Origin: Candidatus Hodarchaeota archaeon
GTDB taxonomy: Archaea > Asgardarchaeota > Lokiarchaeia > Sigyniarchaeales > SOKP01
DNA: 64,000 bases
Assembly: GCA_048886685.1 (NCBI GenBank)
Contig: JBHLKM010000016.1
Location: 45,082 to 109,081, forward strand
Direction: 5' to 3'
In this document: positions 5,511 to 28,605 of the stretch, piece by piece
Layout: every line of letters begins with the position of its first letter
Numbering within the stretch: the first letter of the stretch is position 1
Made by a program: the position numbers and the translations under genes
Notes under the pieces: model-generated
Seen by the model: only the letters and a program-made list of their open reading frames with translations
The model's database searches: none
Told to the model about the DNA's origin: nothing

Positions 5511-6720
5511 CTATTTTTGCTTTGAAAGGTATCTAATTTTTACGAGTAAATCTCGAAGTTCCATTTTATCATTGTCAGATGTTATGTATTTCTTTTTTAC
5601 TCCTTCTGAAAGCGGGATTGTTTCAATTTTATTTCCTTGGAGAGATACCATATTCCCAAATTTACCTTCTAAAACAAGTTTCATTGCTGCTAATCCAAAC
5701 CTTAATCCTAAAATCCTATCAAATGAATTAGGTGGTCCGGCACGCATGGTGTGACCAAGAACTACACTTCGACATTCGAAATCTACTCCATTTTTCTCAA
5801 ATTCTTGTTTTAAATCGTCTCTTAAGTTTAATTCTTCAACAATTATTTGGGACATATTCAATTTTACTAATAATGGATTACCAAATGTATCCTTAGGTAA
5901 TTTATCAATTGTTTCTTTAGATATGGTTTTAAAATCTCGGTTAAGAGATTCTAAATTCGGATAGGCTCCCTCTGATGTAGCAATTATATGATATTTATAG
6001 CCAGCATTAACTCTTTTTTTCAAAACATCAATAACATCTTTTTCTAAGTCAAATGGCGTTTCTGGGATTAATATTATATCTGCTCCAGCAGATATTCCGC
6101 TATACATTGTTAAAAAACCTGCATCTCTGCCCATTACTTCTACAACAAATACTCTTTGATGCGATCGAGCCGTGGTTGTAAGATTATCCATCGCGTTAGA
6201 GGCTAGTTGTGTCGAACTCCAGAAGCCAAACGTATAATGTGTTCCCTGCAGGTCATTATCAATAGTTTTTGGCACTCCTACTACTTTAGCATCAGCGAAT
6301 CTATACAAATTATCAGCCACTCCAAGAGTATCGTGTTCAGTTTAAAACAGAAGTTATTCTAAAACTCCACCGATAGCAATTAGAGCATCTATTCCTAATT
6401 CTTCAAACTTTTTGGTTAATTCTTTAGCTTTTTCCTCTTTTGCACTTACTCCCTTAAATGGATTCGTCCTACTTGTATATAGGATAGTCCCCCCCACAGT
6501 ATGTAGGTCATCATGTTCTGCTATATTAAGTGGAATTGTTTGGTTTTCCACAAATCCTTTCCATCCCTTAAGGATGCCAACACATTCAATCCCAGTATCA
6601 TAAGCTTTAAGCATGATTCCATAAAGTACGGAATTTAAACCGGGACAGTGTACGACAGTTAAGGAAACCTTTAGACATGGCTCCGCCGCCCGTGAGAATT
6701 CCAACTTTTTTAATTGCTAT
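5511..6720 (-). CDS. pfp: PfkA-family phosphofructokinase, probably PPi-dependent; three exons join(6720..6681,6649..6365,6334..5511), 382 aa
   Basis: Removing the 31-nt and 30-nt inserts restores GILTGGGDCPGLN and IGGDDTLG and gives one frame of 1149 nt. PKTIDND, EVMGR and LGH motifs are intact. GGDD plus PKTIDND is the PPi-type signature. Start appears to be ATA after a GAAGGTGA SD. Confidence 0.88.
6335..6364 (-). other. Putative BHB-like mRNA intron 2 of pfp (30 nt)
   Basis: UAUCG-GUGG-AG^U ... CUGA-AC^A-CGAUA: 9-bp inner stem, 5-bp outer stem, in-frame TAA; splits the Asp codon of GGDD. Confidence 0.8.
6650..6680 (-). other. Putative BHB mRNA intron 1 of pfp (31 nt)
   Basis: GCGG-AG^C ... 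UCGU-AC^A: 4-bp central helix, two 3-nt bulges, internal hairpin; splits the Asp codon of GGGD. Confidence 0.82.
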
Positions 6721-6854: not shown

Positions 6855-7256
6855 CTATTCATTTTCATTATTTCCTAACCATTCTTTAAATGTTTTTTGA
6901 GGGATCATTTCCTGTATTGATATACCTGTCTGTTCTTTAAATTGCTTTTCTATCTCCCTCGTCCATAGCTTCTTATCTATCTGATCATTCAGCTTTATTA
7001 AGACTATACCTCCTCTTGCATCAAAAGCATCACGTTTAAATGAATCTCTTTGCCTTGTTTTGTATTTACTATGCCAATACATCTCCCAAAACTCATATAA
7101 TACCTCATATTTCTTTCCATTTATCAAAACACTGTTATATCCATCTACATGAGATCTCGGGTGAACTTTTTTATTCACTCCCTTAATTTTTATTTGATTT
7201 CCTACAATATTGCGTAAATGTGTATGATCAAATTTTACGCCAAATATTTTTTCCAA
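6855..7256 (-). CDS. Vsr/PD-(D/E)XK-like nuclease domain protein, possibly 5'-truncated
   Basis: VDGY...YEFWEMYWH...QRDSFKR...GIVLIKL pattern; begins immediately after the ZPR1 stop. Confidence 0.5.
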   Translation of the reverse strand: MEKIFGVKFDHTHLRNIVGNQIKIKGVNKKVHPRSHVDGYNSVLINGKKYEVLYEFWEMYWHSKYKTRQRDSFKRDAFDARGGIVLIKLNDQIDKKLWTREIEKQFKEQTGISIQEMIPQKTFKEWLGNNENE

Positions 7257-28377: not shown

Positions 28378-28479
28378 GCAGATGTAGCCTAGTTGGTAAG
28401 ACGCTGGCCTTGAGTAGAACTTACAATCAAGTGAGCCAGTGCGCGTGAGCGCTCGGGGGTTCGAGTCCCTCCATCTGCG
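28378..28479 (+). tRNA. tRNA-Ser(TGA) with 19-nt canonical 37/38 intron (28415..28433)
   Basis: GCAGATG/CATCTGC; BHB CTTG-AG^T ... CAAG-TG^A; long variable arm. Confidence 0.92.
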
Positions 28480-28501
28480 CTTTGTAAACTAGTTTTTGAA
28501 A

Positions 28502-28605
28502 GGGCTATTGGCGCAGGCAGGTAGCGCAGCAGGCTCTTAACCTGACGGTCGGGGGTTCGAATCACTCGTTTGGAAAAGACGAGTGCGAAATTCCCTCATA
28601 GCCCG
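28502..28605 (+). tRNA. tRNA-Lys(CTT) with 30-nt non-canonical T-loop (59/60) intron (28562..28591)
   Basis: GGGCTAT/ATAGCCC; CAGG-CTCTTAA-CCTG; BHB TTCG-AA^T-CACTCGT...ACGAGTG-CGAA-AT^T. Confidence 0.92.

What the first reader, a model, noticed from the sequence alone, without database searches (positions are those of the whole stretch)
6335..6364. pfp intron 2: relaxed BHB with an alternative fold, located in the phosphate-donor specificity motif
mRNA sense: UAUCG-GUGG-AG^U-UUUAGAAUA-ACUUC-UGUUUUAAA-CUGA-AC^A-CGAUA. The 9-bp inner and 5-bp outer helices are strong, but the central helix is weak (G-C, G-U, U-G, G.A mismatch). A competing register (AGUUU/AAACU) would sequester the 5' bulge. 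The intron is in frame but contains TAA. Inference: splicing may be slow or conditional and so act as a regulatory step, and it implies an EndA with relaxed specificity.
Basis: partly seen in the sequence, partly recalled or inferred. Interest (0 to 1): 0.78.

Follow-up and report, generated by a model that had tools for sequence, protein, structure and literature searches.

The report
tRNA-type intron in Asgard phosphofructokinase
A 30-base insert with stop codons breaks the active-site motif of the only phosphofructokinase gene found in this Asgard archaeon and is very probably cut out of the messenger RNA by the tRNA-splicing enzymes, but the proposed alternative fold is not conserved, so there is no sign that it works as a regulatory switch.

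Summary
The intron is real; the regulatory switch is not supported. Window 6364-6335 (minus strand) is a 30-nt insert in a Promethearchaeota (Loki-type Asgard) PPi-phosphofructokinase gene. Removing it, together with intron 1, restores a 382-aa protein with GGDDT. I found 44 copies at this site. All are 30 nt and contain an in-frame stop. About 97 of 117 family genomes lack it precisely. Synonymous sites in the exon arms of the BHB are frozen in carriers (identity 0.93, against about 0.5 beside them). A relaxed central helix is normal: 43 of 44 copies, and about 9 of 25 tRNA introns of this genome. The slipped register is the computed minimum-energy fold here, but substitutions keep the BHB register and break the slip in 6 copies at three or more places on the tree. 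A tRNA-Ser intron has an equally unfavourable fold. The cut splits the first Asp of GGDD, not the specificity Asp, and no junction gives GGDG. The (alpha-beta)2 EndA with its broad-specificity loop is present, as already published for Asgard. No RNA reads were available. The scan noted this intron before in other genomes; papers I could search report only cbf5.

The parts
6335..6364 (-). Intron 2, 30 nt, in frame with two TAA; splits the first Asp codon of GGDD (G^AC)
   Evidence: same 30-nt insert in 44 loci; only this junction restores GGDDT
6365..6375 (-). Exon 2 arm of the BHB: outer helix strand (6375-6371), central helix strand (6370-6367), first two bases of the 5' bulge (6366-6365)
   Evidence: synonymous positions frozen in carriers, free in intronless genes
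6341..6363 (-). Inner helix, 9 bp (6363-6355 with 6349-6341) and 5-nt loop
   Evidence: 97.8% of cells paired in 30 distinct copies; one pair A-U to G-C in 5 copies
6334..6340 (-). 3' strand of the central helix (6340-6337; G.A mismatch at 6337) and the 3' bulge (6336, 6335 ^ 6334)
   Evidence: first bulge base A in 44/44, second bulge base free (all four letters), A at 6337 in 42/44
6329..6333 (-). Exon 3 arm: outer helix strand, 5 bp
   Evidence: 98% of cells paired; third base of the split Asp codon is C in 20/20 genome carriers, 5/42 non-carriers
6339..6366 (-). Slipped register (6366-6362 with 6343-6339): computed minimum-energy fold in this copy, not conserved
6365..6649 (-). Exon 2 of pfp (285 nt)
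5511..6334 (-). Exon 3 of pfp; carries the second Asp of GGDD and PKTIDND (PPi-type signature)
6650..6680 (-). Intron 1, 31 nt, frameshifting, splits the Asp codon of GGGD; central helix 4/4, weak flanks
6681..6720 (-). Exon 1, probably starting at ATA (6720) behind a GGTGAT ribosome-binding site (6731-6726)
   Evidence: ATG, GTG, TTG, ATA or ATT at the same position in relatives

Best explanation
Intron 2 is a working tRNA-type (relaxed BHB) intron in the mRNA of a PPi-dependent phosphofructokinase. The long inner and outer helices hold the two junctions together. The (alpha-beta)2 EndA cuts after the second base of each bulge, accepting a 3-bp central helix closed by G.A, and RtcB joins the exons to rebuild the Asp codon of GGDD. 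Splicing is a housekeeping step and the intron is a tolerated, often lost passenger. The slipped fold is a by-product of pairing an intron CU with the purine run GGAG that the protein motif dictates. Shown: the insert, its conservation, selection on the exon arms, the pairing pattern, the enzymes' genes. Inferred: cutting by EndA, ligation by RtcB, near-constitutive splicing.
For: 44 copies, all 30 nt, all with a stop. Precise absence in about 97 of 117 family genomes, read from open-frame lengths and checked by sequence in 42. Only the BHB junction gives GGDDT; slides of 4 nt either way give H, V or worse. Third-position identity among carriers is 0.93 in codons -4 to +1 and 0.45-0.5 directly outside, across three genera. 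Exons are under purifying selection: 107-136 synonymous against 28-39 amino-acid changes. It is the only full PFK found; no class V FBPase or ADP-PFK was found. EndA alpha and beta and RtcB are present. BHB register: covariation score 0.124 against 0.081 for the slip. About 9 of 25 tRNA introns have 3 or fewer central pairs. At least 14 gains or losses on well-supported branches.
Against: The Turner model puts the BHB fold 8.0 kcal/mol above the ensemble in this copy, near the top of its own family (2.7-8.1, median 4.3) and of the tRNA introns (0.2-10.7, median 4.5). RNAalifold predicts only the outer and inner helices, neither central register. 38 of 44 copies can still form the two-pair slip. 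The covariation counts are few and come from related sequences.
Confidence: 0.8

Rival explanations
1. The slipped fold is a selected switch: it hides both cut sites until temperature, a ligand, a protein or ribosome traffic shifts it, so splicing gates PFK synthesis.
For: The slip is the computed minimum-energy fold, and both bulges are predicted paired (0.99, 0.95). The enabling U is kept in 38 of 44 copies. Retention always truncates the protein at about 111 aa. A regulatory role was once proposed for the cbf5 intron (PMC2738675).
Against: U-to-C at that base in 6 copies, at three or more places on the tree, breaks the slip and strengthens the BHB. In all 38 U copies the next base is A or G, which pairs only in the BHB register. 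The pair that hides the 3' site forms in 8 of 30 distinct copies, and the U at the intron start is A in 12 of 30. tRNA-Ser(CGA) has 3/4 pairs and a gap of 8.2 at the canonical site. The gap changes smoothly, 10.1 to 7.3 kcal/mol from 4 to 50 C, with no crossing. Most relatives lack the intron.
Confidence: 0.1
2. The insert is never removed and the gene is dead or dying in carriers.
For: No RNA evidence. This copy has the least favourable BHB of its family, and two changes against the fragment copy on C5, one of which weakens the inner helix.
Against: Exons are intact and under purifying selection in 20 genomes of three genera; exon arms are frozen; the insert length is invariant; no other PFK was found.
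Confidence: 0.03
3. The insert is skipped at another level: ribosomal bypass or readthrough, or excision from DNA.
For: It is in frame and forms a hairpin.
Against: Readthrough would put 10 residues inside GGDD, and the stops differ in place and number (1-3) among copies. There are no matching take-off and landing codons or terminal repeats. The conserved features (A first in both bulges, free second base, exon-exon helix) are those of EndA substrates, as in this genome's tRNA introns.
Confidence: 0.04

Closest known systems
cbf5 pre-mRNA intron of Desulfurococcales and Sulfolobales (Watanabe 2002; Yokobori 2009, PMC2738675)
   Same: Short BHB-type intron in a coding sequence; cut between the first and second base of an active-site Asp codon; often relaxed motif; host has a heteromeric EndA; precise secondary losses; a regulatory role was proposed but, in the passages read, not shown.
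   Different: Asgard host; a central-metabolism enzyme; two introns in one mRNA; several other mRNAs of the genome are interrupted; loss is far more frequent; splicing not yet shown by RNA.
Non-canonical tRNA introns of Asgard archaea (PMC11291895; bioRxiv 10.64898/2026.10.13.758758)
   Same: About 30 nt, hairpin inside, relaxed three-of-four central helix is a recognised class, repeated gain, same enzyme.
   Different: Lies in mRNA; exon arms are held by codon choice. No similar sequence was found among this genome's tRNA introns. In the passages read, these papers do not report mRNA introns.
HVO_1309 5'-UTR BHB intron of Haloferax volcanii (PMC7714728)
   Same: An mRNA substrate of the splicing endonuclease whose removal seems to matter for expression.
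   Different: Untranslated region, not coding sequence; a different lineage and, from my own knowledge, a homodimeric strict EndA.
PPi-dependent PfkA-family enzymes (GGDD and PKTIDND; PMC12203962; PDB 9CIR/44XA)
   Same: The spliced product has both signatures; an intronless relative matches 44XA at E 1e-145 with contiguous GGDDT.
   Different: The gene is split twice. Donor use was not assayed here.

Membership tests
Archaeal BHB (EndA-spliced) mRNA intron, cbf5 type | Insert interrupts an otherwise intact coding sequence; exact removal restores a conserved motif | tested here: met
   382 aa, GGDDT, one junction only
Archaeal BHB (EndA-spliced) mRNA intron, cbf5 type | BHB or relaxed BHB geometry at both junctions, cuts after the second bulge base | tested here: met
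   relaxed class (3 of 4 central pairs, both flanking helices); A first in both bulges
Archaeal BHB (EndA-spliced) mRNA intron, cbf5 type | Host encodes a broad-specificity EndA and a ligase | tested here: met
Archaeal BHB (EndA-spliced) mRNA intron, cbf5 type | Spliced mRNA, or cleavage by EndA, demonstrated | not testable with these tools
Canonical strict BHB (hBHBh') | Four central base pairs, including the pair next to the 3' bulge | tested here: not met
   G.A in 42 of 44 copies; 4/4 in only one (L065)
(alpha-beta)2 EndA with L1/CSL loop | One catalytic and one structural paralogue; loop with the conserved Lys in the catalytic subunit | tested here: met
   L031 ORF aligns end to end with PDB 3P1Z chain B, loop and Lys included, Tyr/His/Lys kept; L032 ORF lacks the His; loop described in PMC5829648
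Regulatory RNA conformational switch | Both folds conserved, each with compensatory changes | tested here: not met
   No slip-specific pair has a two-sided change; they are broken in 5, 12 and 22 of 30 distinct copies
Regulatory RNA conformational switch | Condition-dependent change of fold and output | not testable with these tools
   Only a computed temperature series, which shows no crossing
PPi-dependent PFK | GGDD and PKTIDND signatures | tested here: met
PPi-dependent PFK | Measured use of PPi | not testable with these tools
   No assay

The most novel reading that the evidence does not exclude
The slipped fold is a real kinetic trap in lineages such as this one, so that splicing of intron 2 sets the level of the only PFK according to conditions: regulated intron retention in an mRNA of a close prokaryotic relative of eukaryotes.
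Probability: 0.1. Interest if true: 0.85.

Novelty: new member of a known kind. Interest (0 to 1): 0.58.

Why it matters
In the papers I could search, an endonuclease-spliced intron inside an archaeal coding sequence is reported only for cbf5. This intron, with intron 1 and similar inserts in purA, trx, uvrB, cobO, cdhA and a GH38 gene, indicates that Loki-type Asgard archaea splice several housekeeping mRNAs with their tRNA enzymes. That bears on whether mRNA splicing existed in the host lineage before the spliceosome. It also means gene callers split pfp in about one in six genomes of this family. The 44 natural variants give a ready series for testing how weak a central helix an (alpha-beta)2 EndA accepts. 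The regulatory idea adds little on present evidence.

Tried and rejected
2. Donor switching by alternative junctions: no slide gives GGDG. 3. Intron copied from a tRNA or another mRNA: the only full-length similar sequence lies in a duplicated pfp fragment on C5. 4. Recent spread of intron 2 with a long co-converted tract: synonymous identity drops to background directly outside the BHB arms. Old or very short tracts are not excluded. 5. Link to an upstream endonuclease gene: inserts between zpr1 and pfp go with intron 1; alleles with intron 2 alone have zpr1 adjacent wherever it could be placed. 6. Genome-wide census of mRNA introns without outside homologues: too noisy (19,347 raw candidates). 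I used only cases recognised by motif; Pfam placed four downstream exons in mid-domain. This set is biased towards conserved motifs. 7. tRNA intron boundaries were set by hand with a 3-nt window; Glu-CTC, Gln-CTG and Arg-TCT are uncertain, and two multi-intron tRNAs were left out. 8. The metagenome pattern fixed the 5' exon arm, so exon statistics use only the 20 genome-derived carriers. 9. Literature searches found no report of Asgard mRNA introns; the library lacks most subscription papers.

Full report
Observation. The pairings are as written: 9-bp inner helix, 5-bp outer helix, three central pairs and a G.A mismatch beside the 3' bulge. The 76-nt region folds better than all 200 shuffles (z = -3.2). 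The slipped register is the computed minimum-energy fold.

Gene and host. Both large exons match PfkA-family models. The relatives are Promethearchaeota, i.e. Loki-type Asgard archaea. The gene has exon 1 at 6720-6681 (probable ATA start), intron 1 at 6680-6650, exon 2 at 6649-6365, intron 2 at 6364-6335 and exon 3 at 6334-5511. Removing both inserts gives 382 aa with GGGDCPG, GGDDT and PKTIDND; keeping intron 2 stops the protein at 111 aa. GGDD and PKTIDND are the published PPi signatures (PMC12203962). It is the only full PFK found in the genome; class V FBPase and ADP-PFK were not found.

The insert is a maintained intron. I collected 44 copies at this site: 20 from GTDB genomes of three genera and 24 from metagenomes. 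All are 30 nt and all contain one to three in-frame stops. About 97 of 117 family genomes have an uninterrupted frame there; 42 checked by sequence have a scar-free junction. It was not found in the other families searched. Carriers and non-carriers are interleaved: well-supported branches force at least 14 changes. In carriers the synonymous positions inside the exon arms are frozen, for example the third base of the split Asp codon is C in 20 of 20 against 5 of 42. Third-position identity among carriers is 0.93 in codons -4 to +1 and about 0.5 just outside. The exons evolve under purifying selection. This is what is expected if the RNA structure must form for the enzyme to be made.

Which register is selected. 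In the BHB register the outer and inner helices are 98% paired and one inner pair changes from A-U to G-C in 5 copies. The first base of each bulge is always A, and the last intron base takes all four letters. Intron base 26 pairs with G in the BHB register and with A in the slip. Its only substitution, U to C in 6 copies, improves the first and breaks the second. These copies sit at three or more places on the tree (L065, L085-L088, L089). In all 38 copies with U, base 27 is A or G, which pairs only in the BHB register; the two alleles with exon C have G there. The pair that would hide the 3' cut site forms in only 8 of 30 distinct copies. The covariation score is 0.124 for the BHB and 0.081 for the slip. 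These counts are small and the sequences are kin, so they favour the BHB register without proving it. RNAalifold calls neither central register.

Is the weak helix unusual? No. One copy has 4/4 central pairs, 38 have 3/4 and 5 have 2/4; the G.A is kept in 42. Among 25 tRNA introns of this genome about 9 have three or fewer central pairs (three boundaries uncertain). The computed cost of the BHB fold is 8.0 kcal/mol here, 2.7-8.1 across the intron family, 4.4 for intron 1, and 0.2-10.7 (median 4.5) for tRNA introns. tRNA-Ser(CGA), with a canonical 37/38 intron, has 3/4 pairs, both bulges predicted paired and a cost of 8.2. Nearest-neighbour models penalise bulges and ignore the bound enzyme (own knowledge), so such a gap does not imply a switch. 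The window's copy is at the weak end of its family, so slower splicing here is possible. The candidate introns in trx and cdhA have a mismatch at the same position.

Position in the motif. The cut splits the first Asp of GGDD, D103 in Bacillus numbering, a metal ligand by established knowledge. The specificity residue is the second Asp, in exon 3. No junction within 4 nt gives GGDG, so splicing cannot switch the donor. Intron 1, the purA insert and the published cbf5 intron also cut after the first base of an active-site Asp codon. Inserts in trx, cobO, GH38 and uvrB also lie in conserved motifs. The site is therefore typical of this intron class, although my sample is biased towards motifs I could recognise.

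Enzymes. The genome has two EndA paralogues. One aligns end to end with the crenarchaeal catalytic subunit 3P1Z chain B, with the L1/CSL loop, its lysine and the catalytic Tyr, His and Lys; the other lacks the His. RtcB is present.

Mechanism. Most likely the two long flanking helices align the junctions, EndA binds the relaxed motif and cuts both bulges, and RtcB ligates. The insert, its conservation and the enzyme genes are shown; cutting and ligation are inferred. Precise, repeated loss could come from recombination with a copy of spliced mRNA or with an intronless allele; my data do not separate these, nor loss from repeated gain.

Comparison and verdict. It works like the cbf5 intron and meets every testable feature of that kind; spliced RNA could not be tested. 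It fails the strict BHB definition and the conservation test for a two-state switch. Papers I could search report only cbf5 in coding sequence and HVO_1309 in a 5' UTR. The scan has noted the same intron in other genomes; those notes are not independent support. Verdict: a real relaxed-BHB mRNA intron, new member of a rare known kind, interest 0.58. The regulatory reading has about a 10% chance.

Noticed in passing
window 6720-6718 (minus strand); loci L035-L089: pfp probably starts at ATA behind a GGTGAT site. ATA or ATT starts were seen only in alleles with both introns (about 18 loci), never in intronless ones. ATA/ATT/ATC/CTG-only starts follow 31 of 172 such sites genome-wide.
   Followed up: partly
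G000 C5:244014-244245 (L115): A 232-nt copy of pfp, 95% identical, covering most of exon 2, intron 2 and a few codons of exon 3. Its intron equals that of L006 and differs from the window's at two bases.
   Followed up: partly
window 6855-7256 (minus strand): A 133-aa ORF between zpr1 and pfp, not found in the other loci; no Pfam hit, Atlas look-alikes include DUF559 and DUF2726 clusters, so a possible PD-(D/E)xK nuclease.
   Followed up: partly
L043, L045, L074, L012, just upstream of pfp: ORFs with LAGLIDADG-like motifs lie upstream of intron-1 alleles; inserts between zpr1 and pfp go with intron 1, not with intron 2 alone.
   Followed up: partly
window 6650-6680 and L036, L037, L043, L046, L066, L073, L089, L091, L109: Two different sequence families of intron 1 occupy the same site; in the second, exon C-to-U goes with intron G-to-A in the central helix.
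   Followed up: partly
window about 28378-28480 and 28502-28605 (plus strand): tRNA-Ser(TGA) with a 19-nt anticodon-loop intron and tRNA-Lys(CTT) with a 30-nt T-loop intron; both are missed by the default tRNA scan of the window.
   Followed up: partly
G000 C2:178230, C1:288858, C3:215413, C17:95399, C18:88180, C20:41204 (L117-L122); weaker C13:42, C21:13639, C12:133611: Candidate 29-34-nt BHB-type inserts in purA, trx, uvrB, cobO, cdhA and a GH38 mannosidase; weaker candidates in glyS and two unnamed genes.
   Followed up: partly
G000 C1:218424-218598 and C1:17820-17981: tRNA genes that seem to carry three or more introns; boundaries not resolved.
   Followed up: no
L003 (G005): The pfp start and intron-1 site read as N in this genome, so its intron-1 state is unknown.
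   Followed up: no
pfp tree: In several sister pairs the intron-2 carrier has the shorter branch (L001/L095, L006/L003, L008/L009, L075/L014); two pairs show the reverse. Not tested.
   Followed up: no
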